From positions 1 to 64,000 of the forward strand of contig JAHBMJ010000366.1 in assembly GCA_018398765.1 (NCBI GenBank): DNA of 64,000 nucleotides. Reading direction: 5' to 3'. Source of the DNA: Chromera velia. Taxonomy: Eukaryota. The notes beneath the pieces were generated by a model. It worked only from the letters and a program-made list of their open reading frames with translations, had not been told where the DNA came from and ran no database searches. How positions within the stretch are numbered: position 1 is the first letter of the stretch; every line of letters starts with the position of its first letter. This document shows positions 17,842-62,000 of the stretch, in pieces. The translations under genes and the position numbers were made by a program.

Positions 17842-17877
<36 letters not shown>

Positions 17878-20703: not shown

Positions 20704-20756
<53 letters not shown>

Positions 20757-21420: not shown

Positions 21421-21461
<41 letters not shown>

Positions 21462-22312: not shown

Positions 22313-22351
<39 letters not shown>

Positions 22352-23780: not shown

Positions 23781-23820
<40 letters not shown>

Positions 23821-24431: not shown

Positions 24432-24463
<32 letters not shown>

Positions 24464-25260
24464 AACAAACAGACAGAAAACCAGCAGGCGATGTTTGTTT
24501 GAAGTTCTTTAGGATCCTGTCCCATTCCTCTTTCTGCTTGCAGGGGTCGGATGCTAACACGGAACTGTATATTAGACTCGCAAGCTGTTCGCAATTCATC
24601 ACATATGCACAGACGGAACGGAAAGAAGCAACGAATTCTCTCGATACACCCGCGGTACCGTGTTGCTTTTTGCGTGCAGCCATTTGTCCCGTGCCGATGC
24701 CGGGAGGAATTCCGTGGAACAACGAACGTCCGAATGACAAAGACAAGGCAGCCAGAATGCTGATCAACGGTGATCAAGCCCGCTCGTACACCACAGGAGG
24801 CGCTCTGGTTGCAGAGAATCCCTGGGTGGTGGAGCATGGGTCTGAGTTTCAGTTGATGTGTCTTGCAGGGAAGAATATGCAAAATGGGGTCCGAAGAGTC
24901 GGCACGCCCTATAGGAGGGAGATCGAAAAAACAAAATCCCGACAATTCTCCAAATCAACAGGATACGAAAACGCCAGCCCGTATGTAGGCAGTTGGATCA
25001 AATCCTACTACGGTTTCTACTGTGCCAATTGTGACCTGCAACGGTTGTCGAGAAAGAAGAGATCGACAATGTATGGACCATACAAACGAGTGCAGTGCTG
25101 GTTCGGGCAGTGGACAGACATGAGCTTCGAGTGCCGACAGATCTACACGTACAGATCCTACTCCAACAAAGGATGGTGGACATTCCGTACCTCCGTCGTC
25201 TGCTCGCACATGCACTCGCACGGGTTCATGAGTGGTGAGCACTCCTCTTCTTTCTTTCCC

Positions 25261-25292
<32 letters not shown>

Positions 25293-25702
25293 GTCTGTCT
25301 GTATTGCTGTTTGTCTGTCTGTCTGTCTGTGTGTCTATCTGTCTCTCTGTGTACACGAAGGAAAGAAGAACAAACATATAGTCTGTCTGTCTATCTATCT
25401 GTCTATCTGTCTCTCTGTTTGTCTCTTTGTCTGTGTGTAGTGAGTCTCTCTTTTTCCCCCCCCCAAATTTGAAGGGAGCAGCTTTCCGTGAATGAGTGAG
25501 AAGCTGCGCAACAAACGCAGCACAGCCTCCCCCCCCCCAATTTTGCGTGTATGTGTGTACATGCACGCCCTCCCCTTTAATTCTTGTTCATAAACTTCTG
25601 TGTGTGTGTTCATTCGTCAATTGGTGCAGAGGCACAGCTGCTGTCGGACGAGAGATTTGCCTCACGGGTGTCCCCCCTCTTGGTCAAGGTCTGTCTCTTA
25701 CC

Positions 25703-29958: not shown

Positions 29959-30673
29959 GTCGGTGATAGAGGTAAATTTCGGACTTTTCAATCAGACTCG
30001 CAGTAACTGTTGCCTATATGTGTTGCATGGGCCTCTTCGTTCAAAACATCAACCGTAAGAACTCACGTGTGAGATTGAGGCACGATTGACCCGTTTCAGC
30101 GACTACTTGCGCTACAAATAATCGGTTTGGTGCACACAACAGCACGAGAATCAATGTGAGGAGCTGTTCTATATATATTACGGGATACACGAGGCGACAG
30201 ATATATAGCAATACATATATATAGGTCAGTCATTTTCCTTTCTCGGCATGCATGCATGCATGGGGTTTTTGAGTTTGTCCAAATGCATGGGTGCATATTG
30301 GGGGAGACGCATGCGTGATCGCCGTGATCGACTCGCGATCTCTCTCATTTTTTTTTTTTTTTGCATTGTGTGGGGTCCATGCCTATACAGGCCGCCTGCA
30401 GTATATATACATATACACCTCTATGAAAGTCAAATCCACTGAGTGGATCCAACATTGAAGAGCACGCGGACAGGAAAGATCTGGCAGAGCCACAAGGCGG
30501 GAGACAGAACCATTCAATCCACTCGTCGAACAACTGCTGTTCATCGACGTGTTAATTGTCGGCATTGATCTGTACTGTCGTCCATTGATGTATATATATA
30601 TACTAGCTGCCGCGTATAATTGCGTTGACTTAATATTGATTCGACGTCCAACCCTGCTTTTGAGAGATCGCAC

Positions 30674-37617: not shown

Positions 37618-40600
37618 CATCCAACCGTGTATCCCGGACAGACATGTTTTTCTGTTTTACGCGGAAATCAGTGCAGCGTAAGGCTTTGATTTGACTCCCC
37701 GTCCAACCTCCCTCCCCAACTTCCTGTAGGAGGGATGGCGTTGATTCTCTTGGCGAGCGGGATGGACTATCGATCGATCGATCGATCGCACAATGTTATG
37801 CAATCAGCCGGCCTGTTTGAAGAAAGACAAACAAAGAAAATGCATCGTGGCATCCTGAGAAAAGAAAGCTCTTGAGCAGAACAGCTGAAGCAGTGAGAGA
37901 GAAAGAAAGCCAGAAAGAAAAGAGACGGTCCGGGATCTAGAAGACGATCGATCGAACATGGAAAGCCTCCCTCGCGTGGGTGTGCGGCAAGATGATGAGG
38001 AGGCACTATTTTGCAGTTCGGTTGATTGATGTTTTCTTTTCTTGTTTTCCGTTTCTCCTTTCTCCCTCCTGCCTCCCCTTTTTCTCTCTGTCTGTCTGTC
38101 TGTCTGTCTGCAAGTCTTTTTGTCCCGCCGTTGGCTTCCTTCCAAACTCTCATGCATGCATGGGGGCACCCACCTTCACGTAGGTTTCGCGCTTGCTTGG
38201 AGTGTCACAGTTGCCGTTGAGGAACACGACGGCGTTTCTTTTTTCGCTGAAGGGCAGAATGGGGTCCTGCAGAACGACCAGAAGGTCAAACAAACAGGCA
38301 GGCAGGCAGGCAGGCAGGCAAGAGTGGAAACATATCGATCTGCAAAAGTACCCAGAATGCTCACGAATGCATCGACACATACTATCACATGCAGACCCTG
38401 GCTGCAGCTGGACTCACTCGAGCAGGCAGTCGATCGTTCAATCATAATTAAAAGAAAAGAAACTGTCACTGAGCTTATATTGCAGAAACCCTAAGCAGGC
38501 GAGAAGGGGTTGGTGAGAAGGGCTAGGGACACAGGTATTGATAGTGAAGCACAAAGCGCCCACTCTCGCCCTCTCTCTCTCTCTCTCTCACAGTCTGTTG
38601 CACACCTTGGAGAGAGGACGGAACGACGAGAGAGGACAGAAGGGCGGAGGAATCAGTGAGGGCTACAGAAAAGGAGACAAGGTAAAAGATGGGGGGTGGA
38701 AAGAGAGAGACAAAGAATCGAATACGAAGGCAAACAAACAGTTGATCAGACAGAAAGTCAGACAGTCAGGCAGAAAAAAAGCAAGATCAACAAATGGATA
38801 GACACACATCCAGGCAGCTCCAAAGGAATGCAAAAATGCAAACATGGGGACATATGCAAAAACCAAGAAAGGTGGGGGGTACAGACGGCCACAGTCACAA
38901 CATCATCGATCATTCTGTACATATGTTTGTATTTGCATATGTATATAGATGTATGCGGCACTGGCGCCCCCAACCATGCACAGTTTGCCCTCAGTATTTC
39001 TTTCATCAATCGATGCACACACAGGCGACCACACCCGCATGTTCTCATCGATACCATCGTGTTGGATCGATCGCTCGAAAGGAAAGAAAGAAAGACTGCA
39101 TGCATATGCGCATGCATGCATGACTAAGCCCTTCGATCTACACAACTCACGTAGACCCTCTCGACCATCTTTGTCGTCAAACACGGCATCCACTTCTGCA
39201 GGCAGGCAGACAGGCAGACAGGCAGGAAGACAGAATTCATCGACGTATATAATATCCCTTCGATGACTTGTTGATCCTTTCGGTCCATAAGGAAGACAGG
39301 AAACCTCGATATCCGCGTGCGCAAACATGCAAGATAGGTTTCTTTTCCATATGCACACATAAAAATCTTGAGTCTGTGCTTGAGAGTCGACAATTCGAAA
39401 TGTGAGAAGATGCACAGAAAACAAATGCATCATCCATGAACGTACAAACGGCAACTCACGCGCACAGGCAAACAAAATTCTCTCTCTACACGCATGCATG
39501 CATGCATGATCGTCTTCCCAGATCCCTCCCTGACTCCTAATGGATCGATCGATCGATCTGCATCAGCACCCAGAAGCACCCTTTTCTTTCTTTTCCTTTC
39601 CTCTCCTTCCCTTAATGACTTTGCGTCCACAGAGACAACGTACACATTTATGCGATACCAAAATGGATCTCTGTTTCATTCCATACCACCCCGACACCGA
39701 GCCAGACCGACCGACCGTACTCTCCTTGAGGTACGTGGACGACATGTCAAATCTGCAGGGAGGAGGCATGCCATCAGTATACAAGGGGAAAGGGAACAAA
39801 TAGAGGAGGCAAACCTTCACAACGAAATTAATTCAAGTGTATGGAAGGAAGCATCCAAATGTTGATATCATTCCAAACCAACACATACAACGTCATGCGG
39901 ATGTGCTTCACTACATGACAGACCATCAGAAAAGCTGAACAAATGACTGTGGGCGGAGGTGACAGACCGACAAACAGGCAGATAGGCAGGCAGGCAGGCA
40001 GGCAGGCAGACAAACAGACAAAGAGACAGACAGCCAAACAGACAAAAAAGGGCGGACAAACAGACAGACAGATAGACAAACTGGCAAACAAACAGATAAA
40101 AAGACAATTACAGAACAGACACTCATGCCTGCATGACCTCAATGACCGACAGGCGCAAAAAATCCGGATTTCTGAAAGCCGGTACGCGAACTGCCGACTC
40201 GATCCCGGTGAGAGCCGTCATCTGCCAAGGGAATGTCTTCTGGAAGATTGGCCTCAATTCCTCCGAAGATCCTTTCAACCCGACAAACCCATGCCACATC
40301 AGGACCTCAGCATTTTGGTTGTTCTTGTACTTGGGATGTGTCCTAGAATAAACTTCGCATGGAACCCGGCAGCCCTGAAACGGTCCGTCCGGGTACCTCA
40401 AATGCGACCTTGACATAAACTGGACGGTCACAGTTTTGTTACTTATTACAGGGGTGACCGAAGAAGGCTCTGGTGACACGTCAGGGGTGATTGCGCCTTT
40501 CGATGAGGTCTCATCAGTCAGTGCAGCCTCTTTCGTAATGTTACGTGCACCCGCCGTTCCTCCGAAAGGCCGGTCTTCTCTTTGAGGCGAAATACCAGCA

Positions 40601-41555
40601 GAGGGATGACCCACTCCTTCTTCTTTGGGGGCAGCAGAAGGCGGGGACGTCTGCAAATTCTCCCCCCCCCCGGTCGTTGCAACTAGCTCTGGTTCCGTTT
40701 TTTCGGAGGCGCGGTCACCAGCCAAAAAGACGGCCCCTGGACCGGGCATCGCACCCGTTTTCGCTTCTCCCTGTGGCCGAAGTGATTTTGCTTCATTCCC
40801 CCCATGACTCAAACCAGCACCCCCTCCATCTCCCTCCTGTTGAGTCTGCAGCAGCTCACTCTTCGACGCCGACTGCTGCACGCCGACTTTCGTCAGTCCA
40901 GCAGTCTGGAGTGAGTTGTTGCCGTCTGCTGAACTGCTGTTCGCGTCCATTGAGGAGGAGGGGGCTTCTGCGGTCCTGGGCTGGAGGAGACCCGACGCCG
41001 CCCTCTCCCCCTCAGCCTCGTCTTCTCCTCCCGAGTCGGGCAGTCGTGCTCCGTCCGTCTTCTCCTCTTTCAAGGAAGCAGGGAACAAAGAAGGAAAAAT
41101 ACACACATTTACATACACTTCAGGCAGGAAAACACCGTCCGTCTCGCTGCGCATGCAAGGCGGAACGCGTACTCGCTCAAACTCAGTACCGCTTGCCTTT
41201 CTATATATGTATACGTGCATCCGTGCATTTCACAGAGTGTCGATATCATTACCCTGGACGGCAGCAATGGAGCCGACGTACCTCTTTTCGCTTCTTCGAG
41301 CTCACATACGACCTTCAGCCAGCACTCCGCGCCTTCAGGCTCACACTCTTCCTGAACAATCCGGTGAGTGCCCTCGCAGTGACGCAATGGAGAAGGAAGA
41401 GTTCCCTCTGGACGGAAACACACGTCTTTTGCACTGGGAATCGATTTCTCTTCCCCCAAAACGAGAAATTTGCGGACTTGCACGAACTGTCGCCAGTACA
41501 TGACAGAAAGGAGAACCAAGATGCAGGCGGCGCCAATGACGAAGCAGCGCGTCAT
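33369..41555 (-). CDS. GT10 alpha-1,3/4-fucosyltransferase-like type II membrane protein, copy 2
   Basis: Exons: 41555-~41478 (TM MTRCFVIGAACILVLLSVMYW), ~41065-40151, 39752-39716, 39195-39151, 38266-38174, 37530-37484, 36951-36868, 36013-35933, 35227-35142, 34584-34442, probably 33861-33795 and 33538-33369. Motifs VVFLNGNCDTPSKRETYVK, VDAVGACLHN, SKFCLVFENSITKDYVCEKVFEGLQAGCLPL..GPANIREFLP, LMHNETAYNERLKWK. Confidence 0.88.
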
Positions 41556-42266: not shown

Positions 42267-43372
42267 ATGATCGCTGTTATCCTTGCCCGCGGGGGCTCCA
42301 AGCGATTTCCTGGCAAGAACGTCACTCTGCTCTGTGGTAAGCCTCTGATAGCGTGGACAATCGAGGCAGCACTGGGCTCAGGCCTATTCTCTCAAGTGGT
42401 CGTTTCCACAGACTGCGAGAAGATCAAGGCAGTGGCCGAGCGCTACGGAGCTTCTGTGCCCTTTCTTCGTCCTGCCGATCTCGCCTCTGACGATGCCAGA
42501 GCTGTGGATGCTCTGGAGCACTGCTTGCAGACACTTGGAGTGTCCTCTGGGAAGTGCTGCCTGCTGCAGCCAACCAGTCCAGTACGTTCTGCAGAAGACG
42601 TGCGAAGGGCCGCAGAGGAATTTGAGAAGTGTCCTAAGGATGTTGTGCTCGTGTCAGTTATCCCTTCGAGCAGCAGTCCCTTCAAGACGCACACGGTCAC
42701 TACAGACAACCTCATGGCTCCCGTGACGTCTGCGCAGTTTTTTTCGACAAATGCACAGTCGCATCCACCGACATACTCCGAGAATGGGGCCATCTATTTC
42801 TTCCATGCGGACAGCTTCTTTGCCGCCAAGCCCCAGACCGCCTGCGGTGTTTACGGGTACAAAGCTGCCCCCTTCGTGATGAGCCCAGAGACAAGCGTGG
42901 ACATCGACAAGCCCGAAGACCTCGAGAGAGCGGTGAAGGCTCTCGCCCCCCGTCTCCGTCAGGCGAGGCCTCCCTTCCTTATTGGGAACAGAGTCATCGG
43001 CCCAGACCAGCCCCCACTGGTAATCGCAGAAATAGGGATCAACCATGAAGGCGACTTTCAAAAGGCCATCAAAATGGTTGACGACGCACACGCGGCCGGC
43101 TGCGAGATCGCGAAATTTCAGTGCCACGTCTGCAGCGATGAGATGACGAAGGACGCCGGTCAGTCCATTTCTGAAAAAAAAGCCCGGTCTGCGAAAACCC
43201 TATTAATGTCTGACCTTGATGCAGAGCGTGTACACATGTAGAAAGAGTCTTGTCACAACATCAGCAGCAAAGCACGTCGGCCGGTCAGTCTGTTTGAAGA
43301 GCCGAGCCGCTTCTGGTTCGTGAACTGTTGCAATTTGACGACTTAACGGTTCCTTTCTGTCTGTCTGTTTTT

Positions 43373-43412
<40 letters not shown>

Positions 43413-43990
43413 GCTCACTCTCTCTCTCTCTCTCACACACACACGCACAATCCCACGTGCATGCCGGCATGCAGGGAGCGTGATCCCCGGCAACGCGACG
43501 GAAAGCATCAAGACGATCATGGAACGGTCAGCTGGCATTTCTTCTTCCTCTTTCGATCAAGAGAACGTTCAGCTTTTCTTTTTTTTCGTTCCCCTCCTTT
43601 CCTTTCCTTTCCTCTTTCAAGGAAACGTACACGCTTGCTTTCTCTTCCTCTGTCTCTGTCTCTCACATGCCAGAAAGAAGCACAGCATCCCTTCACTCAC
43701 GTCTGCGTGCCTGGTCATCTCCTGACTCTCTCTCGCAGAGACTCCCATATCAGCCTGCCTGATCCACCCATGTACCCTTCATTTCCTCCCCCCCCCCTCA
43801 TTTGAGAGAGAGAGAGAGAGCCCTTCCACCAATTCCTATTCGCACATCCCCCTAGCTCTCTCCCGAGCCCACTACATAGTGCACAGTACCCATACAGCCC
43901 CCCCTCCGGCATTCATCGGTCTTCGCATTCTGTTTGAACGAAATCTCCGCTGAGTGCGCACATTTTTGTTTCTGTCTGTCAGTGTGTGTG

Positions 43991-44025
<35 letters not shown>

Positions 44026-46175
44026 CCCTGCATGGATGCTTTCATGCATGAATGCATGCAGGTGTGCGCTGACAGAGGAGGAGGATCGGAAGCTGAAGGA
44101 GTACGTCGAGGCCAAGGGCATGATCTACATGTCAACACCTTTCTCAAGGGCGGCAGCGGAGCGCCTGAAGAAAATGAACGTGGACTGCTACAAGATTGGG
44201 TGAGTGGGTGGGTGAGTGGGGAGGTGAGAGGGTGGGGGAAGGGGGATGGATGTGTTCCCTCTGCCACTGTTTGCCTTCTCATCTACACGATTGGTTAGTT
44301 GTCTCCTTCTCTCTCTACCTGTGTATCTGTTTGTCTGTTTGTCTGTCTGTCTGTCTGTCTCTCTGTCTGTCTGTCTGCCTGCCTGTCAGTCTTCTTGCCT
44401 GTCTGTCTGTCTGCCTGCCTGTCTGCCTGTCTGTCTGTCTGTCTGTGTCTCTGGTGCTCTCCGTCGCTGCCCCCTTTTCAAACCAGAACCCGGTTCCTGT
44501 CTTTTCTTCTCTGCCTGCCTCCTCGGGGTCTTCTCTGCTTTTGTTTGCACATGCGCTCTCTCTATTGTCCCCCGTCCTTGTGAATGTGTGTCTCCCCCTG
44601 CCCTCTGTTTGCACATGCGCTCTCTCTATTGTCCCCCGTCCTTGTGAATGTGTGTCTCCCCTCCTTTCCCCTCCTCTCCTCACGCATGCAGCTCCGGTGA
44701 GTGCAACAACTACCCTCTGATCTCTCATATCGCCAAGCTCGGTAAGCCGGTGATTCTGTCCACCGGCATGAACGACATCGCGTCTGTGGCCCCCGGAGTC
44801 GAAATTTTCAGAAAGCACAGGACCCCCTTCGCACTCCTTCACTGCACCTCCATGTACCCTACACCATATGAGCAGGTAGGGGGTGAGAGAGAAACGAAAA
44901 GAAGCCTCAGGCTGATAGCACACACCCCTTGGCGCGATCACCTGATCAATAGCAATGAAGGGAAAAGCCTGAATCTTGCATATTTGATCAGACAATAGGC
45001 CGTAGTCCTCACTAGTGGTGTATCTATGAGAGGAGTGAAATTTCAGAAAGAGTGGACTGTGTTTGAGGGGCTTTTTTTTTCATTCCGTCTGCTCTGTTCT
45101 ACTTTCTGTAAGATTGTTGGTCGCCTCCTTTTCATACAAATTCTGTCCGCATCTTTCTTTTGTCATGCCCCCCTTCCGTTTGGTTCTTTGGTCTGTTCAG
45201 ATTATGCAGTGTCTGTCCTTTTTCTTTCTGTTGTGCCCATTTGTATTTAGCGTGTTCACACGAGCCTTCTTTGTCAGCACTTCTTCTGGAGCCTTCCGTC
45301 CGTCCCCGCTTTCCAGGAAGGATAGAAGGAAGGAAGAGAGAAACGTCGATCGAGAAAAGAAGGGGACATGAGGAATCCTGCTGATAATACGACCATCCAC
45401 TTCCTTCCCACACTGCTGCTCTCTAGCTGACTGGCCCTCCAGGAGCTAGGAGGATCGATCCGCCCGTCCATTTCCTTCCACTCCACTCGGCTCCGCTGGG
45501 TTCCAGTTTGTGCTGCTGCCCCGATTTGGTTTGTCAAATCGATTGATTGGTTGATTGATTGATTGATTGGTTGATTGAATGGAATCATTATTTTTTGTTT
45601 GTGATTGATTGATAGATGGATGCATCATCATCATCATCATGTGGTGTGGTGTGGAGTACGTGATTGATACATCCATGATCCTCCATGCATCGATGATGCA
45701 GGTCCGATTGGGGGGCATTGCGGAATTGGAGCGCGCGTTCCCCGACGCCGTGTTGGGTCTGAGTGATCACTCCCTGGGCATTTGGACGTGCCTCGCGGCA
45801 GTCCCCCTGGGAGCATGTATCCTTGAGAAGCACTTCACGTCTGACAAGACCTGGCCGGGGCCGGACGTGCCGATCTCGATTGACCCCGACGAACTCCGTG
45901 ACCTCATTCAGGGAAGCAACATCATCTTCCGATCCCTGGGGGGAACTAAGGAGATCCTGAAGGAAGAGCAGCCGACGATCGACTTCGCCTATGCGTGTGT
46001 GGTGACCATCAAGCCCATCGCGAAGGGCGAGGTGTTCTCGATGGAGAACGTGTGGGTGAAAAGGCCTGGTACGGGGGAGATTTTCGCCAAGGATTTTGAA
46101 GTGGTGTTAGGAAAGATGTGCATGGCAGCGCTGGAGACCGACATGCAGCTGAAATGGGCCGACGTGCAGAAGTGA
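42267..46175 (+). CDS. neuA-neuB: Fused CMP-nonulosonate synthetase (NeuA) + N-acetylneuraminate synthase (NeuB/SiaC-type)
   Basis: Exons 42267-43158, 43475-43526, 44062-44199, 44692-44875, 45702-46175 are in frame. NeuA: ILARGGSKRFPGKN, VSTD, FLRPADLASD, LLQPTSPVR, ENGAIY, SVDIDKPED. NeuB: PLVIAEIGINHEG, VIPGNA, STPFSRAAA, YKIGSGECNNYPLI, ILSTGMN, LLHCTSMYPTPYE, GLSDHSL, ILEKHFT, and an AFP/SAF-like tail NVWVKRPGTG. Confidence 0.95.
44542..44662. repeat. Direct tandem duplication (64-bp period) in NeuA-NeuB intron 3
   Basis: TGTTTGCACATGCGCTCTCTCTATTGTCCCCCGTCCTTGTGAATGTGTGTCTCCCC starts at 44542 and again at 44606. Confidence 0.9.
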
Positions 46176-47769: not shown

Positions 47770-48906
47770 TTAGAGCTGGCCCAGGACTCCCTCGAGGTGC
47801 TTCATCATCCTACTCACGGCATGACCGTCGCCGTAGGTGGTGTCCCTGTCAAATCTCTCCTTCGGGTGCTCAAGCAACGCCTGCAGCACCTCATCCGAAT
47901 TCTCCCCCTTCACGGAAAAGACGTTCGGCGGACAGGTGCGGCCCTGCTGGCGGGTCCCGACGTTGACTGCGGGTGTGCCGAAGAACGCAGCCTCCCTGAT
48001 GATCGCGCTGCTGTTGCCGACTATCGCCTTGCAGTTTTTCAGTAGAATGATGAACTCCTCGTGGGGGAGAGAGGTCATGCAGTTGACATTCTTGGAAAAT
48101 GTGGGGGAGGTTTTCTGAATTTCGTGGAGCGTCTGGATCATGTCTTTGCTCCCCGGGTCGATATTCGGGTAGAAGAGGATGGCACGTTCTCCCGTTCGGT
48201 CTACAGCCTCCAGGATCGACCTGTACTGTTTCACGGTGTCCTGGATACTGCAGGTGTCGGGATGGTACATGATGATGAAATATTCATGGGGGACTACTCG
48301 GTGAGTAACCAGCAGGTCTTCGGTCGAGTGTCCACTGCCGATATGTTCCATTTCGAGGAACACATCGTACGATGGACATCCGGTGCAGAAGACTGCGGAG
48401 TTTTCCTCACCCATTTCAATCACTCGCATCCTGGCTGCCTCCGTACATGTGAAATGAAGATCGGAGAGTTTCGATATCGAATGTCTCAGCTTTCCGTCAA
48501 TCGTTCCGGACAATTCCCCTCCCTCAAGGTGCACTGTGAAGATTTGCAACAAAGTGGAAGCAGATGCCACTCCGAAAGCGTCAAAACGGTCACCGTGCAC
48601 AATCACAATCTTTGGCTTAGCGAGGGCCAAAAACTGGGAGACCTTCAGGATGGTCAACGCCACCGAGTCGGCCATGTTGTTGGTATCATTCCCCGCCGCC
48701 ACGGTGGACACTTTGGTGGCACTCTTGGCGAAGTCCTTCTCCACAAGGCGGAAACTGTACCCGCTTTCAATCAGAAGATGACTGCCAATCACCAGTGGTA
48801 CAAGCTCAAACAGAGGAGACTTCTCAAGGGCAAGCATAAGGCCCCTCAACTTGGAATAGTCCGCTCGGGTGGAGGTAACAACACACACCTTGACGGGTTG
48901 CTCCAT
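47770..48906 (-). CDS. neuC: Hydrolysing UDP-GlcNAc 2-epimerase (NeuC / GNE epimerase domain only), intronless
   Basis: ATG 48906; VCVVTSTRADYSKL, GSHL, VHGDRFDA, HLEGGELSGTID, RHSISKLS, GCPSYD, YPNIDPGS, VGNSS, VNVGTRQQGR, YGDGHA; stop at 47770 with no kinase domain. Confidence 0.95.
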   Translation of the reverse strand: MEQPVKVCVVTSTRADYSKLRGLMLALEKSPLFELVPLVIGSHLLIESGYSFRLVEKDFAKSATKVSTVAAGNDTNNMADSVALTILKVSQFLALAKPKIVIVHGDRFDAFGVASASTLLQIFTVHLEGGELSGTIDGKLRHSISKLSDLHFTCTEAARMRVIEMGEENSAVFCTGCPSYDVFLEMEHIGSGHSTEDLLVTHRVVPHEYFIIMYHPDTCSIQDTVKQYRSILEAVDRTGERAILFYPNIDPGSKDMIQTLHEIQKTSPTFSKNVNCMTSLPHEEFIILLKNCKAIVGNSSAIIREAAFFGTPAVNVGTRQQGRTCPPNVFSVKGENSDEVLQALLEHPKERFDRDTTYGDGHAVSRMMKHLEGVLGQL

Positions 48907-49774: not shown

Positions 49775-50968
49775 ATGACCGACGTAGACGGGGTCTGGTT
49801 GATCGGGTGTGGGAAACATGCGATCCACTATGGCAAAATCTTGGGGCATCTGGGGAGAAGCTTTCTGGTCATTGGGCGTGGAGAGAACTCAGCCAATGAA
49901 TTCCTGAAGAAGTTCGAAGAGGCATGCCCAGACGTGAAGTCTCTGCCTGAAGTCAAATTGGGCGGACTCCAGCAGTTTCTCTCAACGAAGCCACCGATAT
50001 GCGGAAAGGCGATCCTTTGCCTGCCTGTCGAAAACCTGGCCTCCGCAACCTATCAACTGATCCGGTACGGTGTGAAAGACATTTTGGTGGAGAAACCCCT
50101 CGGGAAGAACAGCTCTGAGCTGGACCGACTGGTGAAGGTTTGTGAAGCGGAGGATCACAGGCCGCGGGTCTTTGTCGCGTACAACCGCCGTTTCTACGCA
50201 TCCGTCACTCAAGCAAAGGCTCTGATAGAGAAGGAAGGAATCCTCTCGGCAAAGCTGGACTTCAGCGAGAGGACAGACCAACAGGCGTTGAGAGTTCCTT
50301 ATCTTTTGGTTGGTCGGTTCCTGCAGAGAGCACAAAATTGTGTCCGTTTTCGTCATCTTGTGATATGCTTGCATCTATTCTTTTGGTAATTTCCCGGTCT
50401 GTTCCTTTCCCCTTCAAACTAACACTTGTAATTTATGCAGGGAGAAGTGCACAAGTAGTTTTGCCCTGCTCTTCTATGCAGATGGGCAACAGCTCACACA
50501 TGCTGGATGTCCTTTTTTTCCTCGCCGGCATGCCCGTGGAGCTGCACCCCAGCCACTCGCATAGCGGGGACCTCGATTTCTTCCCTGGGCCAAGCGTGTT
50601 TGTCGGTCACGGGAAAACAGACAAAGACGTGAGCTTCTCGTACCACGCAAACTGGAACTCTGCTGGGCGGTGGGCTGTCGAGGTCATAACCCGAGAGAGA
50701 AAACTTATCCTCAGTCCCGTGGAGAAGCTGCAGGAGGTGGGCAAGATAGATAGACCGTCTACGCTCGCTCTCATGATCTGCCTTCTAGTGCGTCCCTCTT
50801 CCTGCCACCCTGCATTCCTCTTTGCCAGACTCGCCGTCCACCCCACCTTTCTATGTCTGTCTCCCTGCTTTCCTGCCTGCCTGCTTCCGTGCCAGAGAGG
50901 CGAAGGCATGCGTGCCACCTCCGGGCCGTTAGTAAATTGCCTTGAGACTGCGCTCTCTTGTCCTGTTT

Positions 50969-51005
<37 letters not shown>

Positions 51006-51006
51006 C

Positions 51007-51042
<36 letters not shown>

Positions 51043-52972
51043 TATGTGCGTGTGTATGTGCGTGTGTGTGTGTGTGTGAGAGAGTGCAGATGCCGAAAGG
51101 AACGTTCAATCTCAGCGAGGTGGACCCGGGCGAGTTTGCAGGCGCGTACAAGAGAGACCAGGTCTTCAAACCGGGTCTCTTCGATCTCACGGAGGCCTTT
51201 TTGAAGTTGAAGGAGGGGGACTTGCCGCCTCCCTCTCTGCCTTCGGTTGAAGACCAGCTGGAGCTGGTTCGGTACTACGAGCGGATTGAGGGTCAGAGGA
51301 GCGACAGTCAGGTGTGGGTGGTCGGCTGTGGAAACATCGGTATGAGACATCTGCAGGGGATAGCAAAATTCAAGGGCGCGCCCTTCACCTTGAAAGTGGT
51401 GGAGAAAAGCGATGAAGCCCTGCAGAAGGCATCCAATGCCTTTCATGATGAGGCAAAGAAGGGGAGCGTGGATCACATCTTGGTCCCCTTCACCGACTGT
51501 GCCTCCCTTGTCGGGCAGCAGCCTGTCGATGCAAACGTGATTTTGATCGCAACAACAGCAGACGCAAGGTTTCAAGTCCTAAAAGAACTTTTCTCGGCCG
51601 AGGTGGGGGACCCTTCATCGTTCATGCCGACGAGGATCCTCATTCTTGAAAAGGTGAGCTGGGGGGGGAGGGAGGGAGGGAAAGTTTGCAAGACAGAGAG
51701 GGGACGAGAAGCCACGCAGACGGGGAGAGGCGGAAGGAAGGTATGAAGGACGTCCTCTTTGTGTGTTTAGATTGGGACGGAGAGCTAATTTGAGGAACTA
51801 CAGAGAAAAGACATGCAAAGTGTGAGAGGAAATAGAGGAGAAGAGGAAGCGCGTGCGAGACGGTGAGAAGAGTGAGGAGAAGGAAAGAAAAAAAGTCGAG
51901 AGGCGAAGAATGCAAGAAGAAAGAGCAAAACGGGGCAGGCAGATCAAGTGGAGGAGAAAAAAGAGACAGACAGGTGAGTAAGTTTAGCATGCAAGGAAGA
52001 GAAAGAGTGCGAGGGTGAAGAGAAAGGAAAGCTTTCGGGAAAAGAAAGGAACGTAAAAAGAATAAAAAATGGACACAAAAAAAAATAGAGAGGTTGAAAT
52101 GAGGACATCTTCCCTCCCTGTTTCTTTCACAACTGCATGCAGCCTCTGTTCCAGAGAGAGAGGGACTACGACGAAGCCCCCCATCTGTTCTCGCGTCTCG
52201 GTCTGGACGTCTACGTCCACCTCCCCCACCGCATCCACCCCCATATCCTCCAGTTCAAAGACAAACTTGCTGCTGCTGCTGCACAGGTACGAGACGAGAC
52301 GAAACGAAAAATGAAAAGCCACTAGATGCATTCATTGGAGAAGAGAGAAACAAAGAACATGGATAGATCGTGAGAATAGACCGCTGCATGCTGCTTGGTG
52401 TATGGGCTGTATCAAAGAGTGAAGAGGCAAGATGACACGTGTGGAGGCGTAACTTTCTCTCTCAAAAGCGTTTGATTCCTGCTCGTTTGTCTGTCCGTGA
52501 CATGCAAGCTTTAGATGTATGCGATACCTCATGCTTCACTGCCCTCACGGTCGGGTCTCTTTCCTTTTTGTACCTCAAACCGTCTCAATCGATCCATCGA
52601 TCCTGAATGTCTTCAGAAGAGAAACATCGATCTGCATGGTGTTCGCTGCTTATTTCTCTTCTCTCTGTCTCTCTCTCTCTGTCTCTCTCTCTCTCTCTTT
52701 TTTGTTTTTAATGCATGCATGCATGCATGCGCCTGCCTGCCTACCTGGGTGCCTGCAGGAGCCTGTGCACATGAGGTATGGGGGTTTCCACTGGGGTCTG
52801 GGTTGCAATGGCATCCACGGTCTGGACCTGTTTTTGATGATGAACGGCGAGGTGGGGCGACCGGACGACCTCCAGTTTGACAACTCAATGGTCAGAATGA
52901 AGCTCAAAAGAAAGAAAGCGCATAGATCCATGCGTAGTAAGGCTTTGATTCAAGACGCAACGCAAGTATTGA

Positions 52973-53009
<37 letters not shown>

Positions 53010-55477
53010 CGATTGATTGATTGATTCTGCCTAGACCCGGCCGGCACATGGGACAATCAGGGAGGCAGGCAGGCAGGCAGGCAGGCAGACAGACGGACAG
53101 GCAGGAGGCCGCAGGGGCAGGCGCAAAGGATTGAGTGGGGACTTTGGGACAAGCAGACAAGCAAGTCAGGGAGACAGACCGGCACTGCTACTTCGATTAT
53201 GAGCCTCAGAGGGACTTTCTGTCTCTCTCTCTCTGTCTGTCTGCCTGTCTGTCTGTCTGTCTGTCTATTTGTCTATCGCGTTGCGTTCTTCCCTGAATTC
53301 AGGTCAGAGAGGTCCTGCCTGCCAAGCGAAAGGGAGCCTGTGAGTTTCTCGGGGAGCTCAAGGTGACGCACCCTAACGGTGCTGCGTTGACACTCGTCAG
53401 TGGGTGGGTGGGAGGTGAAGGGGATAGCCTGGTCTGGCCTGGTCTGGTGGGGCTGGCTGGCTGGGTGCATGGGCTGTGTGGGCGGATCTGACTCTTCCTT
53501 GGAATGAAGTGAAGGAAAGAAAGAAAGAAAGAAAGACAGACAGACAGACAGAAAGAAAGAAAGAAAGAGACAAGGAGAGAAAGAAAGAAAGGAAGAAAGG
53601 AAGAACGAAAAAATTGATTCAGCCCTTTGGGAAATGCTGTGGACTTTCGCTTGATCGAGTGAACAACTGACTAGAAAAAAAAGAAGATCACGCCCTCTGT
53701 GGCTTACTGATTCTGTATCCCCAAAAAGAGATGGACATACACGTGTCTGCAGTCGTTTCTGTCGTGCTCTTCTTGTATCAGTATCAACAGTGCTGGATTG
53801 TGTGCCTGCGCGTCTGAAACGAAAAAGCCGTTCCTTTCCTTTCCTTTGCGACCTTTATGCACGTAAACCGACCGTCTCCGAATTAACGATTGAATTGCAG
53901 CTTGCTGCTCTGAACCTTGCCGTCAATTGAATTGAATTGGCATATAACCGTGCAGTGTTGTGCTCCATACAGCTCTACATGATCTGATATATCGATCCCC
54001 CCACCTCTCTCTCTCTTCCCCCTTTGCCTCAGTGGAACGACGTACCACCTGAAGAGGGGAAGCATAACGCGCTCGAATACGAGCTCGATTCTGCATCCTG
54101 GAAGGGGGTCTTCAAGAACGGCAAGTAAGTAAGGAAGTCGGTCGGGAGGGAGGGAGGGAGGGAGGTGTTCCTTTAAAGGCCCTTGCTGGTGGATGACCTC
54201 CGATCGAGGCCCTTCTTGTCTCTCATTCCTGCAAAAACTCCTTCAGAATTCTGCATGTAACCCCTTCCTTTCTTCCTTCCTTCCTTTCTTCTTTCCTTCC
54301 TTTCTTCCTCCCTTCTGTCTTTCTTCCTTCCTTTCTTCCTTCCTTGCTCCTTCATTTTCTGGTTGCTGCTTTGCTTCCTTTTTTTACTTCCCTCTTGCAG
54401 GTGGAAGGTTGGAAAAGACCTGAACAACCCCGAGCGTGAAGAAACACTGGGACACCCATACGTAAGTCGCATTTTTGTTCTTGTTCACGCTTTGCTCCTC
54501 CGAACGACGTCACGGCCTTTTCCTTGTCCCCTCCCTGTTTCTTCTGCTCCCTTCCCTTACCAGTGAACCCTAAATTTAAATTCACAACAAATCGCCTTCC
54601 CTCTCTCCCCTCCTACCCCCTTGCCCGAGGAGCCCGTGAGAGAGAGAGAGAGAGAAACAGACAGACAGACAGACAGACAGACAGATTGACAGATAAACAG
54701 AGAAATATGCAGATTCGAAATCCCCCCCCCAGCTTCCTCATGAGAAGGTCGCTTCCCTCCCTCCCTCCCTCGACCCAACCTCTTCATGGCCATCTCATGA
54801 ATTGTTCACAAAACGCATGCAGCAACGCGAATGGGTGCATGGTCTCTCCGACTGACTTTTTCTTTCTTGATTGTGCGCAGGTCTCCGAGTCAAGCCTCAT
54901 TTGGTTCTCGCAGTGCCTCAGAGACAAGAGGTGGGTGGGTGCATTGGCCGACAGTCTGCCTCTCGATCCACACACAAAAAAATGATTCGCATGCGTTGCT
55001 TTCATGAACCCTTTTGCTTGTGTTTGTTCGGTCCTCTCGACAAGTCCTCGATCTGTGAGGAAATTCATCTTGCTGCCCGTGAAGAAGTCTCTGCGGATCT
55101 ACTGAATGCATTCAGATCCTCTCCTCACACTCCCAACACGCAAGCGTGTCCATCCACTCCACTTGATTTCCTGTGTTGTCTACGAAGACCGCCGGAAGGA
55201 AGAATTTGATGTTGCATGGACTGTACGCAGCCATCAAACCGACGTGGTTGAGTGATTGTCGCACGCGCTTGCAGGTGCGCCCTCCCGACCTACATTTAAT
55301 TTCATAAAAAAGTAAATGCACGTACGCGCTTGCAGGTGTGCCCTCCCGACCTACGCACAGGTGGCGCCAGCGGCTGTCGGCCTTCACCGTTCGCTTCTAC
55401 AAGTCTTTAGAAAGAGCCCGAATCCAGAAGCAATCTCCGGGCCTGACCTCGAACCCGACTGTCTGCCGATCACTTAA
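49775..55477 (+). CDS. Tandem fusion of two Gfo/Idh/MocA-family NAD(P)-dependent oxidoreductases
   Basis: Domain 1: WLIGCGKHA, ILVEKPLG, VAYNRRFY, GNSSHMLD, ANWNSAGRWAVE, FKPGL. Domain 2: WVVGCGNIGMRHLQG, IATTADARF, LILEK|PLFQ, WGLGCNGIHGLDLF, AKRKGACEFLG, C-terminal CLPIT*. Exons ~49775-50284, 50482-50736, 51090-51653, 52143-52286, 52759-52890, 53303-53395, 54033-54124, 54401-54461, 54881-54930, 55336-55477; one or two micro-exons unresolved. Confidence 0.85.
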
Positions 55478-56584: not shown

Positions 56585-58086
56585 TCACGAATAAGTCGGG
56601 CATCGCACGAGATATGGATGTGGTGCAAGGAAGAACGATTCAAGATTTGCTGCCACGACAGCCTCAGCAAAATCAGGGTCTATACATGAGTACTCCTTCG
56701 CGAGAGCCTCTGAAAGATACTTGGGGAACTCTGATCGAGAAAAAAGTGCCTTGGTCGTTTCGTCTCTTTGGCATGGTGACTGGCCTGCATCAGTTCCCTG
56801 CCAGTCCTTTCCGAGCTTTCTGTATAACTGTGCGTACTGCGAATCCGGTGACCCTTTCAAGTCATAATTCCCAGCCCCGAAATCCCTTTTGAGAGCTTTG
56901 AAATGGAACCACGCGTTCACGAACGTTCTCCCCACCTTCCCTTGTCCAGACAGTTTCTCACAGCGGCCCCCTTTGATGTAGACGGTCTTCTGGCTGATGC
57001 GGTGGAGAATGCAATCACCATTACCATTGGTCGGCCTCGTTGCCCACACACACGGGACGCCCTTTCCCCCCGGATCTCTTATCAGGTTGACTCCTTTGAA
57101 GCTCAGCGGTCTGAAATTGCTCTCTGGCAAATCAAGCAGTGTCTCCCGAGCATTCTGCATTGCTTCTCCAAAGACTATCGGGTTGAGAATCGTGTCGCCA
57201 TCCAACTTAATGGCATGCGAGAAGCGTGCACGACTCATGCAGAAGTTGTAGTAGTTCACCAGAGAGTGCGGGCTTGTTGGCGGTAGACTCAAGAACTCTT
57301 TTGTGCCTTGACCATAAACCTTAGCCATGTACTCGAAGACCTTTAGTTTTTTTTTGTCCTTCTCTTCAGGGGATGCCAAGAGTTCTCGTAGCCTGTCCTC
57401 TGTGCAGTCCGAGCAGTCGTTGAAGCAGACGACCACTTCATCGAGAAAATCAATCGCAGACATCACGGCACCGCTGATAAATTCACATTCATTCCTCACG
57501 CGAAAGTAACCGGTGATGCCCCTCTGTCGATCGGATTCTTTCAACATCGACGTCTTAAATTCGAAAGTCTGGACCCGCACAATGGGGTCGGTACTATTGG
57601 CGACATTAGCGGAATGTTGGAAAGGGAGAGCGGCTGCTCAGCCACGCTGCTCCCTGCTGGAAGCCCCACCGCTATGCTCTCTGTGCCCGTCCCCGTGTCT
57701 ACAGAAAGCAAACTAGTGAGGCTGCTGTTGATGCTGCTGGCACTGGTGGGGGCGACGGTGCTGCTGTTGGAGGCCGTGGCAGTGGTGCTACTGCTACTGC
57801 TATCGCTACTGCGCCGAATGCTACTGGTGGTGCTGCTGGCGTTATTGATTCTGACAGCAGGTTCCAGAAACGCCTCCCAAGGTTCCGACCCAGGGGGGGC
57901 AGCCTTGTGTCGGGCCACAAGCTCAGGGTCAACAAATGAGGACTCCTGCTTGCTCAATTGCGAGGGATCGAGCGTGCCTTTATCGTTCTCCACAAGCACG
58001 GACGAAAACCGCACAGTGGAGTGGAAGATGAAGAGGGAACAAAGGATGACAAATAGGAAGGGAAGCATGACAGACCGCCGCCTCAT
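56585..58086 (-). CDS. Type II membrane GT-A fold glycosyltransferase resembling the CgtA (beta-1,4-GalNAc-transferase) / GT2-like group; reading frame broken near 57610
   Basis: 5' ORF 58086-57541: TM MLPFLFVILCSLFIF plus Ser/Thr stem. 3' ORF 57580-56585: GYFRVRNE, VCFNDCSDCTE, SLVNYYNF, AIKLDGD (DxD). The two overlap in frames one base apart. Confidence 0.75.
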
Positions 58087-59040
58087 TTTTCACCACCCAC
58101 AGAAGAAAATACAACAACAAAAAAGCCCGTGCAGTTAGACAGGGGGCGACTGCCTTCGGGCAGTCGGTCGATCTAAATCGATGAACCCGATCGAATTCTC
58201 GGCAAATGGCAAATCACGTTTTTGGTGCATGGATCACATCGTTCTTTCGATCGAGCATCTGAACGCTGGTCGCGGCTTCCAGCTAGACGAACGCCACCGG
58301 ACAGACAGAAATCCAGACGGGCAGCTATATATATATATATATATATATAGACATGCAGGCAAGTATTTTTGCAGTCGATCTTGCAATGTGCATGCATGCA
58401 TGAATGTATCGGTTTCTTCTTTTAGAATTATAGACTGACAGATGTGGCTAAAAATGTTACTATATTAAGGAGGCACACCCAACCTCAGGTGAGTGCCTTA
58501 TTGGGTGTTCTGACACTCATGCAGGCTCTGCGTGGCTCCGTCAAATCACGCGCGCGTCGATATATTTATATCCGCAATTATATATATATATATATATATA
58601 TAAGTAGAATTTTTATGCGAATTTCCGCTCATGCAGGGCCTCGGATTTACCCGAGCTGCCCTCCGAGGACGCACAAACTTAATTCTCATGCATGCACACT
58701 AGCTTGCCTTCGCGCGCGAATACGCGCGAACAAACTAAAAAAATAAATCGATATCGTGTCTCTCTCTCTCTATATATACATGCAGATGCAAAAATATATA
58801 TATAAATTAAAGAGAGACAGTCAGTGTCAGTCACTGCTTGAAAAACGATCCAGCAGCGGATTCTTCTGAACGCAAAACAATCCAGAAAGGTGTCGGAGCG
58901 CGACTGTCATCACTGGTGGAAGGCAGGAAGGAGTGGAAAAGTGGAAGTGGGAAGCAGTCTGTTGTACAAAAGGTTTGTACGGGCATGCAACCCGATGTCC
59001 CCGGGGACTGAGCCCTTTTTGTAGACCCGTCTTTCTAGCA
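58087..59040. promoter_or_regulatory. Putative bidirectional promoter between the CgtA-like gene and GT29
   Basis: 954-bp head-to-head spacer with three (TA)n tracts, TGCATGCA (58389, 58689) and CGCGCG runs (~58549, ~58711). Confidence 0.5.
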
Positions 59041-62000
59041 ATGATTAGACTGAATCGCTGCGGTTGCCGGTACTTGATCTGCATCGCGCTTTTCGTGGCC
59101 GTAGTCAACACATTAGTGGGTTTGCAGCTGTTGAACGGCACTGAAATTCCATTTTCAATCGTCCCCTACCAGACTGAGTGCAACTGCACTGCCGCAGTTG
59201 CAGAAGCAGTTGCAGCCGTTACAGCTGAAGCGGCAAGAGAGAGGGAAGAAATCTTGGCTCGTGTTGCAATGCAGGCACAGGCAGCAGCCGAGTCGACGCC
59301 GCCGGAGCCACCGATCCCAAACAAAGCAGCGGGGACGGGGAAGAAGACGCAGCGGCAGCCTGCTGCACAGAAAAAAAAGAAAGTAGTGCTAAATGAGGAG
59401 TTACTGCCAACAGGCCTAAGTATTTGGGAGGTTCCCACAATCTCACGGAGAATAGCCGATTTGCCCTGGTCGAATCTGACCGCTTTCCGTGCGGCTTTCC
59501 CCAACGATACAAGTAGCTCTACGATCAAGCGGGTTCGCGGTACGCACGACTACGGGGCCGAGGAGCAACTTCGCAGCTTCTTCATCCAGCACGGCCTCGC
59601 GAACTTGCGATTTCCGGGTGTGAACGCCACGCAGCGGGTGGAATGGGACCGCCCTCCGTTGTTAGGGCTCCTGGAAGGGGAATTGAAGGGTCCTGTGCTG
59701 GACCACGTGGCGGCGCCCAAAAACGGTCGCCTTCCCTTTTCGATCCCTTCTAAACTTTATGATCAGTGGAAAGGACTGGTGAAGGGCCTGCTGGAGAAGA
59801 GACCCAGATTCCATCTTGACTCCACAGTGCCGAAGGGATCTGAGTATCCCACCTGTGCTCTCGTGGCCAGTGGTCCGGATATGCTCAATGCGAAGTTTGG
59901 CGCAGAGATTGATGCTCATGATGTGATTTTTCGGATGAACTGCGCTCCTGTCAACGGCTTTGAGTCTCATGTAAGTTTGAGAAGGAAAGAACATTCTAAT
60001 CAATCTGTCAGTGACGCCTTTGAAGCTCAACGAGTGAGTGGGAGAGTCAGTCAGTCAATCCGTGAGTTAGTCATCAGTCAGTCAATTTGTGTATGTATTC
60101 ACGGACAGCGATTCTGCTCTTGGTGTTGTTCGTTTTTGAATCGTCGGCTTCCTTCCACATTCTCTCTCAATCGTCCTTTGAAAAGGTCGGTCTCCGTGCC
60201 TGCCTGCAGGTTGGCTCTCGCACCACCTTCCGCACAACATATCCGGAAAGTACGAGGCAACTGAAAAGGCACTGTGAGAGTGACTCGACCGATCTTAAGA
60301 ATGAAACAAAAACTGACATATGGTGTGAGGGTATCGTCGACCTTCCGTCAGAAGGGGGCACAGTCATTGGGATGGTATTTCACCCACAAAACCTGGAGTA
60401 TTACCACTGTGGGGCTCTGGGATGTCCAAAAAGTTCCAAATACAAATTCGCAACAGAGTACGTGCCCTACAGCGCGGACACGTTTACAGTCCTGAATCCA
60501 GAAGTAATCTGGATCGCACAGAGACTAGTCCCACGAAACGAGACGCAGGGATGGCCTTCTGCGGGGGGGATTCTGGTGGCGCTGACAGGATTGGTAGGTC
60601 ACTCAGCGCTTTCAACGGCCTCTCTCACTCTGTCTTCTTTCTTTATGTGTGCCTCTTTATTTTCATGTCACTTTCTTTTTGCATTCATGATTACCAGAAC
60701 CCTAGTCTATGCTCGTGACATCGTCTCTCTAGATTTTCTTCATCGCTTATCTCTCTCTGTCTAGATGCTCGTGGCAGTTGTTGTCTCTCCTCTTTTTTCC
60801 CCTTTTGACTTTTGTGTTTCTGTGCGTCTGTACCGACCTCTCTTTGTCTTCTCCTTTCCTTTTTCGCTCCCTCTCCCCCCCACCCCCCCNCCCCCCTCTC
60901 TCTCTCCCTCTCTCTCCCTCTCTGTTTCTCTCTCTGCCTCCCTGTGCCGCTCTGCATCTCTCCACGTCCGCGTCTGAGTCGGTCTTCTCATGCGATTTCT
61001 TTGAGCTTGTTTTCTCTCCATCTCTCCATCCGTCGACCCATCCATCCATCAATCCATCCATCCATCCGTCCGACTCTGTCTACCCGAATTTCCTTCTGGC
61101 TCTCTCCCCCTCTCCCTTTTCTTCTTCTGCTTGCGCACATTTTTGAGGGTCCAGCTGACGCCTGTTTTTTTTCGCTGGACTTGTGAATGAATTGGGTGTT
61201 TGCGTCGACTGATTTCTCTCCCTCCCTCCCTCCTTCTTTCTGCATGTACATACGTGTTACAGCGGTTTCACATTTATGATGCACTTTTCTTTTGTATCAG
61301 ATCGGAAAGAACAAAAACAAAAGTTCAAACGTTTACTGTGCCAAAGTTGTCGGATGACCAGTCTCTGAAGATTTATTGAATAAAAAAGGAGAAAAACGTG
61401 AATTGCTGTGTATGCATCCTTGATCTTTGTTTTTATTTGTGATATATGCAGGTGTGTCGGTCGACAACCCTCTATGGGTTTCCCAGCTCATATGCTGAGT
61501 ACTCACTTAAAGGACATGAAGCAATCAAAGAGTCTGACTTTGTTCGAAGGTGGCACTACTATGATTGTGGCGTGGCCACATAGCACAACAGTCTCTTTGG
61601 AGTCAAAAGTTTACGGTCTTCAATGACCCCCCCCCCCCNNNNNNNNNNNNNNNNNNNNNNNNNCCCCCCAATTTAATAACACTTTAGTTTAACAAAGTGT
61701 CATGATATGCTGTCATTAAATGAAAGTCATCTTAATGAATTGTTTAATATGTATTGATATGTTATAATTCTAATAATCTGTGAACATGTGCTATATATAC
61801 TTAAATTTTGTGTCTACCGTTTCAAGTTGTAACCGTATGATGGTCTGTATGTTTCAAATAGTTTGATATAGAATAATTCAAAAATAAATACAAAAATTAA
61901 AAGGAAAAAAACTTGATATACTTAAAAAGCGATCTAAAGCTATTTCTAAGAAGGATAAAGAGGAAGACTGCCCACTGAGGCTCTGTTCAAATTTTTGATG

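What the first reader, a model, noticed from the sequence alone, without database searches (positions are those of the whole stretch)
49775..55477. Fused oxidoreductase pair may modify (epimerise) the sialic acid
Seen: two complete Gfo/Idh/MocA domains joined inside one exon (..RYYERIEGQRSDSQVWVVGCGNIG..), transcribed divergently from neuC. Established (from recall): separate adjacent oxidoreductase genes of this kind occur in bacterial nonulosonate loci, e.g. the ela genes linked to 8-epi-legionaminic acid in Acinetobacter capsule loci. Inference: a fused oxidase/reductase could invert a side-chain stereocentre of (CMP-)Neu5Ac and yield a non-canonical sialic acid in a eukaryote.
Basis: partly seen in the sequence, partly recalled or inferred. 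Interest (0 to 1): 0.8.

Follow-up and report, generated by a model that had tools for sequence, protein, structure and literature searches.

The report
Fused sialic-acid epimerase, alga and worms
A spliced gene in a sialic-acid gene cluster of the alga Chromera joins two bacterial-type oxidoreductases into one protein, and acorn worms carry the same fusion; it likely flips one hydroxyl group of sialic acid, which would give these eukaryotes an unusual form of this cell-surface sugar.

Summary
The fusion is real. A ten-exon gene (49775-55477, 688 aa; Chromera velia by database label) encodes two Gfo/Idh/MocA domains joined inside exon 3, and one spliced contig spans both. It lies head-to-head with a GNE-like neuC, near a neuA-neuB fusion and a GT29 sialyltransferase. 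The halves are not ElaA or ElaC. They match an uncharacterised bacterial gene pair (called U and D here) that sits in nonulosonate loci: 72 of 81 long loci carry neuA/B/C. Of these 81, 32 have a full core but no SDR or ElaA-like gene, and 15 carry an Ela-type module as well. U has an NAD-type and D an NADP-type cofactor motif, which fits an oxidase plus reductase acting as an epimerase. The order is reversed against most bacteria, plausibly because U needs its C-terminal threonine free. The same D-U fusion occurs in three hemichordates, a euglenid transcriptome and four unnamed metagenomic proteins; trees are compatible with one origin. Epimerisation is inferred (0.55); C4 is the likeliest carbon; nothing was assayed.

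The parts
49775..50308 (+). Exon 1 (aa 1-178): D-type domain, Rossmann fold with GxGxH and G-R (NADP-type) motif, EKP (K107), YNRRF
50482..50736 (+). Exon 2 (aa 179-263): D-type domain, N-S-S-H motif (H184)
51090..51653 (+). Exon 3 (aa 264-451): end of D domain, short linker (about 51290-51305), start of U-type domain with GCGNIG, acidic E368 (NAD-type) and EK (K451)
52143..52286 (+). Exon 4 (aa 452-499), U-type domain
52759..52890 (+). Exon 5 (aa 500-543), U-type C-N-x-x-H motif (H519)
53303..53395 (+). Exon 6 (aa 544-574)
54033..54124 (+). Exon 7; its first 30 letters are the loose end of the spliced contig
54401..54461 (+). Exon 8 (predicted)
   Evidence: splice signals and frame; homology
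54881..54930 (+). Exon 9 (predicted)
55336..55477 (+). Exon 10 (predicted), ending C-L-P-I-T-stop, the conserved U-family terminus
47770..48906 (-). neuC, hydrolysing UDP-GlcNAc 2-epimerase, intronless, head-to-head with the fusion; best solved relative is the human GNE epimerase domain
   Evidence: (TIGR03568 over cut-off)
42267..46175 (+). neuA-neuB fusion, 5 predicted exons, 579 aa; NeuB part of the Neisseria SiaC (Neu5Ac synthase) type
58870..60764 (+). GT29 sialyltransferase, 5' part (gene model not completed)

Best explanation
The gene encodes a two-domain Gfo/Idh/MocA oxidoreductase in a sialic-acid gene cluster that likely works as a two-step epimerase: the C-terminal U domain would oxidise one hydroxyl of Neu5Ac (free or CMP-bound) to a ketone with NAD+, and the N-terminal D domain would reduce it from the other face with NADPH. 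Shown: gene structure, family membership of both halves, neighbourhoods, conserved Lys/His pairs and cofactor motifs. Inferred: that the neighbours make CMP-Neu5Ac, that the fusion acts on this sugar, the direction of each half, and the carbon. C4 is preferred (about half of this explanation's weight). Legionaminic acid has free hydroxyls only at C4 and C8, and U/D often sit beside a separate Ela-type C8 module. The product would be 4-epi-Neu5Ac, passed on by the GT29 enzyme. The D-U order is likely forced by U's conserved C-terminal threonine, which a U-D fusion would bury in a linker.
For: (1) Long loci (15 kb or more): 81 of 81 hold both U and D, 72 hold neuA, neuB or neuC, and 32 have neuA+neuB+neuC+ptmE with no SDR or ElaA-like gene, so the pair can stand alone. 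(2) In a sample of 400 genomes of one phylum not chosen by D, U was found in 4 and D in 3 at E 1e-40. The fourth has a divergent D next to U. All 3 regions fetched are neu loci. (3) After the second strand D has Arg in 80 of 82 and U has Asp/Glu in 78 of 78 bacterial proteins; the window protein keeps both (R35, E368). Both Lys and both His are invariant. (4) 15 of 81 loci also carry ElaA-like plus SDR genes. In L043 that ElaA-like protein matches 13 of 13 residues published for ElaA. (5) The pair accompanies legionaminate-type, Neu5Ac-type (L017, L019, L049, L055, L143, L171) and short NeuB synthases, so its target is common to several nonulosonates. (6) The window's NeuC and NeuB are closest to GNE (E 8e-80) and SiaC (E 2e-41) among solved structures. 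(7) U ends in Thr in 139 of 143 complete proteins, while D ends vary; 8 of 9 fused proteins end in Thr. (8) Precedents: oxidase/reductase epimerases Ela (proposed; PMC13656337) and Epa (shown by NMR; PMC12053666). NanOx/YjhC are fold neighbours and oxidise sialic acid C4 (recalled).
Against: No U or D protein has a known activity or a close solved structure (best E 1e-8 and 8e-7). No locus with U/D could be tied to a solved sugar structure. 9 of 81 long loci have no neuA/B/C within the flanks. All 6 such genome loci have NeuB elsewhere, but so do 9 of 14 control genomes, so that is weak. Cofactor motif does not fix direction: ElaA, the proposed oxidase, crystallised with NADP+ (PMC13656337). 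The 'ElaA-like' label is by best blast hit and includes a related Gfo class. A 4-keto group on CMP-Neu5Ac could eliminate CMP (chemical inference). PMC5595891 says Leg genes were not found in genomes of 4-epi-Leg producers, whereas U/D sit mostly in Leg loci. A clear D was found in only 2 of 24 Legionella-genus genomes, one of them the seed. The Chromera copy is long-branched and changes two near-invariant residues (N to H477, W to R166).
Confidence: 0.55

Rival explanations
1. The pair makes another redox change in the pathway: it acts on a nucleotide-sugar precursor (UDP- or GDP-HexNAc, for example at C3 as WlbA/GnnA do) or supplies a ketone for amination or deoxygenation.
For: Fold neighbours include GnnA, WlbA and KijD10. 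Several loci place a class III aminotransferase near U/D. Some loci lack neu genes nearby.
Against: 32 of 81 loci have the pair with a plain Leg core and no SDR or ElaA-like gene. No aminotransferase or dehydratase match was found in the window with the L001 proteins as queries; the rest of the genome could not be searched.
Confidence: 0.2
2. U and D are AciC/AciD of the Acinetobacter acinetaminic-acid module, so the change is C7 inversion by way of an 8-ketone.
For: The order neuA-SDR-U-D in several loci (e.g. L016, L100) resembles aciA-aciB/E-aciC-aciD, and both aci variants give C7 epimers (PMC5595891).
Against: L149 and L151 show a different four-gene run: neuA, a 265-aa adh_short_C2 SDR (L149; AciE is described with that length and family), another Gfo protein and a second SDR. 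That Gfo protein scores under 3 bits on the U and D profiles. AciC/AciD sequences could not be fetched and the defining paper was not held, so this is undecided.
Confidence: 0.12
3. It is a salvage or proofreading enzyme like NanOx/YjhC, interconverting anhydro-sialic acid and Neu5Ac through a 4-ketone without net epimerisation.
For: RgNanOx and YjhC appear among fold and profile hits.
Against: Identity is 14-16% and profile E-values are 7e-6 to 2e-4, no better than unrelated Gfo proteins. The context is biosynthetic. Two partners with opposite cofactor motifs are not needed for that reaction (recalled mechanism).
Confidence: 0.08
4. The Chromera copy is a decaying passenger of a transferred cluster and no longer works.
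For: Long branch and two changed conserved residues.
Against: Open 688-codon frame over nine introns, spliced transcript, catalytic and cofactor residues kept, GC3 like its neighbours (0.68 against 0.69-0.71), intact orthologues in hemichordates.
Confidence: 0.05

Closest known systems
ElaA/ElaC, proposed CMP-legionaminate 8-epimerase (Acinetobacter KL49; PMC13656337)
   Same: Redox pair in nonulosonate loci; ElaA is a Gfo/Idh/MocA protein with a Lys/His pair; same proposed oxidise-then-reduce logic.
   Different: ElaC is an SDR; here both halves are Gfo/Idh/MocA and neither is ElaA-class. U/D co-occur with Ela-type modules. Here they are fused and eukaryotic.
EpaA/EpaB, pseudaminate 8-epimerase (PMC12053666)
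   Same: Two redox enzymes invert a nonulosonate stereocentre; shown by NMR.
   Different: Aldo-keto reductase/CTP-transferase fusion plus SDR; unrelated folds.
AciABCD / AciAECD (acinetaminic acids; PMC5595891)
   Same: Extra redox genes after a Leg core; similar gene order in some loci.
   Different: Identity with U/D could not be tested; a different four-gene run fits the aci description better.
NanOx / YjhC (NanY) sialic-acid oxidoreductases
   Same: Gfo/Idh/MocA fold acting on sialic acid through a 4-ketone (recalled); structural neighbours.
   Different: Single-domain and catabolic (recalled); 14-16% identical.
Bacterial-type sialic acid pathway of Chromera and other alveolates (PMC5811610)
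   Same: That paper reports C. velia GT29, NeuA-like and 2-epimerase genes, and places one C. velia epimerase, with Micromonas, sister to deuterostome GNE.
   Different: The word 'oxidoreductase' does not occur in its two supplementary files; the passages and section read do not mention the cluster or this gene.

Membership tests
Gfo/Idh/MocA oxidoreductases | N-terminal Rossmann fold (PF01408) with GxGxxG/A and EK(P) motif, in each half | tested here: met
   Weak Pfam hits in each half (E 0.0025, under cut-off); the Glandiceps orthologue passes the cut-off with 2 stretches; motifs
Gfo/Idh/MocA oxidoreductases | C-terminal alpha/beta domain and overall fold | tested here: met
   Model of the Glandiceps orthologue, pLDDT 84, two such units; Foldseek hits listed are of this family; Atlas TM 0.88 for residues 1-332 of P0001
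Gfo/Idh/MocA oxidoreductases | Catalytic Lys and His | tested here: met
   K107/H184 and K451/H519 invariant in 82 of 82 and 78 of 78 relatives
ElaA/ElaC 8-epimerase | One partner is ElaA-class | tested here: not met
   33 and 25 bits on an ElaA-class profile whose member L043 matches 13 of 13 published ElaA residues
ElaA/ElaC 8-epimerase | Other partner is an SDR | tested here: not met
   At most 4 bits on the SDR profile
ElaA/ElaC 8-epimerase | Sits in nonulosonate biosynthesis loci | tested here: met
   72 of 81 long loci; window cluster
ElaA/ElaC 8-epimerase | Inverts C8 of a CMP-nonulosonate | not testable with these tools
   Needs an assay
AciC/AciD | Sequence homology to AciC and AciD | not testable with these tools
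   Sequences not in any collection reached; paper not held; indirect evidence against
NanOx/YjhC | Close sequence relationship and catabolic nan context | tested here: not met
   14-16% identity, profile E 7e-6 or worse; biosynthetic context
Bacterial U/D pair (defined here) | Each half scores strongly on its own profile only | tested here: met
   285 bits on D, 170 on U; cross scores 23 and 10
Eukaryote-type D-U fusion (defined here) | One origin | tested here: inconclusive
   U tree and concatenated quick tree: one group, SH-aLRT 91, not starred; free D tree split it in three, but the constrained tree was 37 log units better, p-AU 0.87; shared His in 7 of 7 against Met/Ile in 82 of 82 locus proteins and 1 of 137 single-domain hits

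The most novel reading that the evidence does not exclude
U/D is the missing nonulosonate 4-epimerase. Its fused form makes 4-epi-Neu5Ac in Chromera and in acorn worms, so an animal phylum carries a stereoisomer of sialic acid that mass spectrometry alone would not tell from Neu5Ac. The gene entered early deuterostomes from a Chromera/Micromonas-like protist cluster together with the GNE epimerase and survived only in hemichordates.
Probability: 0.2. Interest if true: 0.92.

Novelty: new variant of a known kind. Interest (0 to 1): 0.74.

Why it matters
Epimeric nonulosonic acids are described as bacterial sugars. A conserved enzyme for one in three acorn-worm genera and in unrelated protists predicts a eukaryotic sialic-acid stereoisomer that is isobaric with Neu5Ac and easy to overlook. 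It would be expected to change recognition by sialidases and lectins. The single polypeptide also makes a widespread uncharacterised bacterial pair (493 candidate loci in the species-genome scan) testable in one assay, including the open question of how 4-epimers arise. The shared presence of the fusion and a GNE-like epimerase in Chromera and hemichordates bears on the debated origin of deuterostome sialic-acid genes.

Tried and rejected
Tandem duplication: rejected, the halves are barely alike. OGG1 hits in the PDB sequence search: judged chance, contradicted by profiles and fold. Phage-encoded EpaA/B as the relatives: other folds; no match in annotated phages. E. coli serogroups as a link to solved sugar structures: blastn with one U-D stretch found nothing (low sensitivity). 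My recollection that a Legionella LPS ORF is such a dehydrogenase: not borne out by the passages read. Genomic context of the metagenomic fused proteins: 0 fused frames among 85 metagenome and viral loci, so their hosts are unknown. The Chromera genome is not held, so other pathway genes and paralogues could not be sought. Whether bacterial U and D bind each other: no verdict. The second-look fold comparison never ran. The careful concatenated tree did not finish. Earlier scan findings: none. Literature searches listed no paper on this pair or fusion; one search was swamped by general hemichordate papers and is a poor test. Two key subscription papers were not held.
Full report
Gene. The window is intron-rich eukaryotic DNA. 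A database protein identical over exons 1-4 is labelled Chromera velia Cvel_3343. Splice signals give ten exons from 49775 to 55477 and an open 688-residue frame. One of four candidate runs could be laid. Its 2067-nt contig covers exons 1-6 in register with three listed GT..AG joints, and its loose end is the start of exon 7. So both domains lie on one spliced transcript. Exons 8-10 rest on signals, frame, homology to residue 688 and contig length. The public model (592 aa) has a shorter exon 5 and runs into intron 6.

Neighbourhood. neuC starts 868 bp upstream on the other strand. It passes the TIGR03568 cut-off and is closer to human GNE (E 8e-80) than to bacterial NeuC (5e-45) among solved structures. 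A five-exon neuA-neuB fusion lies at 42267-46175; its synthase is closest to Neisseria SiaC. A GT29 gene starts near 58870. By inference this cluster makes and transfers CMP-Neu5Ac. No legB or legC match was found in the window.

What the halves are. The N-terminal half matches a bacterial family I call D and the C-terminal half a family I call U (285 and 170 bits; cross scores 23 and 10). A scan of one genome per species found 493 D-encoding stretches; the best 80 were kept. Of these 77 hold U, always upstream on the same strand, 69 of them within 100 bp; the other 3 are short contigs. Among 85 metagenome and viral loci, 72 hold both, 66 as U-D and 6 as D-U, and none is fused. Of 81 loci of at least 15 kb, 72 carry neuA, neuB or neuC; 32 have a full core with no SDR or ElaA-like gene; 15 carry ElaA-like plus SDR genes too (labels by best blast hit to the annotated locus L001). 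These loci were picked by D. In 400 sampled genomes of one phylum, U occurred in 4 and D in 3; the fourth has a divergent D directly before U, and all three regions fetched are neu loci.

Not ela. In PMC13656337 (parts 1-4 of 5 read) ElaA is a Gfo/Idh/MocA protein and ElaC an SDR, and C8 epimerisation is proposed from genetics, structures and docking. A protein of locus L043 matches 13 of 13 residue positions given for ElaA. It sits before neuA and an SDR, and U and D follow as separate genes. The window's halves score 33 and 25 bits on that class. Whether U/D are AciC/AciD is open: the sequences were out of reach, but loci L149/L151 show another four-gene run that fits the description of aciA-E-C-D in PMC5595891 (parts 1-2 of 3 read) better.

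Mechanism. Both halves keep the family's Lys and His. D has Gly-Arg after the second strand (Arg in 80 of 82), U an acidic residue (78 of 78). By established Rossmann-fold rules (recalled) these mean NADP and NAD. An NAD+ oxidase with an NADPH reductase is the usual way to drive an epimerisation. ElaA's NADP+ binding shows the rule does not fix direction. The pair accompanies several synthase types, most often legionaminate-type, where only C4 and C8 carry free hydroxyls. Frequent company of an Ela-type C8 module points to C4. Against this, PMC5595891 states that Leg genes were absent where 4-epi-Leg was found, and a 4-ketone on the CMP sugar could eliminate CMP. The substrate may therefore be the free acid, or fusion may shelter the intermediate. 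U ends in Thr in 139 of 143 proteins while D's end is free to vary, which offers a reason why fusion happened as D-U.

Spread. A search of 1.84 billion representatives (best 150 of 2861 listed) and a profile search (best 120 of 1437 listed, only 7999 candidates scored) found the same D-U fusion in Glandiceps talaboti (660 aa, 21-Mb record), Ptychodera flava (664 aa, 44-Mb record), Saccoglossus kowalevskii (514-aa partial model), a Lentomonas transcriptome and four unnamed metagenomic clusters. Glandiceps and Ptychodera are 71% identical; Chromera is 27-33% identical to the others. The three worms group together (99-100), which argues against contamination. The Lentomonas record is a single transcript and could come from prey. 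No echinoderm, chordate or Vitrella hit was listed; given the caps this does not show absence. One origin of the fusion is compatible with the data but not proven (the trees used 30-58 selected bacterial rows; L003 was left out). The direction and donor of any transfer were not tested. The supplement of PMC5811610 (parts 51-52 read) places one C. velia 2-epimerase, with Micromonas, sister to deuterostome GNE; I did not check that it is this window's gene. Co-transfer with GNE is a hypothesis.

Print. Ten full-text searches listed no paper on this pair or fusion. 'MocA', 'oxidoreductase' and the Saccoglossus locus number are absent from the two supplementary files held as text for PMC4729200 (passages read); four files are listed there, so two were not seen. 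Passages only were seen for PMC9676051 (plus a supplement search), PMC4487303, PMC7371886, PMC8208679 and PMC3766260, and parts 1-3 of 7 for PMC12053666. Kenyon 2015 and McDonald and Boyd 2021 were not held and may describe U/D under other names.

Verdict. A real, transcribed fusion of an uncharacterised nonulosonate-locus enzyme pair, shared by a chromerid alga and acorn worms. It likely works like a two-step epimerase (0.55) but is not a member of the ela family. New variant of a known kind; interest 0.74.

Noticed in passing
window 56585-58089 (-): A 350-codon stop-to-stop frame with no Pfam hit, with a motif recalling GT2/CgtA-type glycosyltransferases (recall), preceded in another frame by a signal-anchor, Ser/Thr-rich ORF; an intron or frameshift may join them. 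It lies between the fusion and the GT29 gene.
   Followed up: partly
window 4109-5872 (-) and 40123-41229 (-): Two paralogous type II membrane genes sharing a conserved block that recalls GT10 fucosyltransferases (recall; no Pfam hit on these first exons). The window looks like a wider glycosylation cluster.
   Followed up: partly
window 42267-46175 (+): CMP-sialic acid synthetase and sialic acid synthase are fused in one predicted 579-aa protein; the synthase is 67% identical to a bacterial NeuB that also lies near U/D (L055).
   Followed up: partly
window 28657-29991 (-): Signal-anchored class I methyltransferase ORF; could be a Golgi glycan methyltransferase.
   Followed up: no
window about 12550-25440 (+): Multi-exon gene with Sushi repeats.
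   Followed up: no
P0001 / Cvel_3343: The public gene model has a wrong 3' end and a short exon 5 compared with the spliced contig.
   Followed up: yes
L171 (G162:C3) 7802-15845: Bacterial locus with a divergent D directly before U (the eukaryotic order), followed by a dehydratase, a SiaC-type NeuB, neuC and neuA; the viral locus L167 also has D before U.
   Followed up: partly
L164-L167: IMG/VR contigs carry U and/or D with NeuB (short forms in L164-L166) and other sugar genes; possibly phage glycosylation genes or misassigned host DNA.
   Followed up: no
L017, L019, L049, L143, L171: SiaC-type NeuB loci that also encode a LegB-like dehydratase, suggesting 9-deoxy sialic-acid-like products (inference).
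   Followed up: no
L149 2-3218, L151 4622-7787: Run of neuA, SDR, an unrelated Gfo protein and a second SDR that may correspond to aciA-E-C-D outside Acinetobacter.
   Followed up: partly
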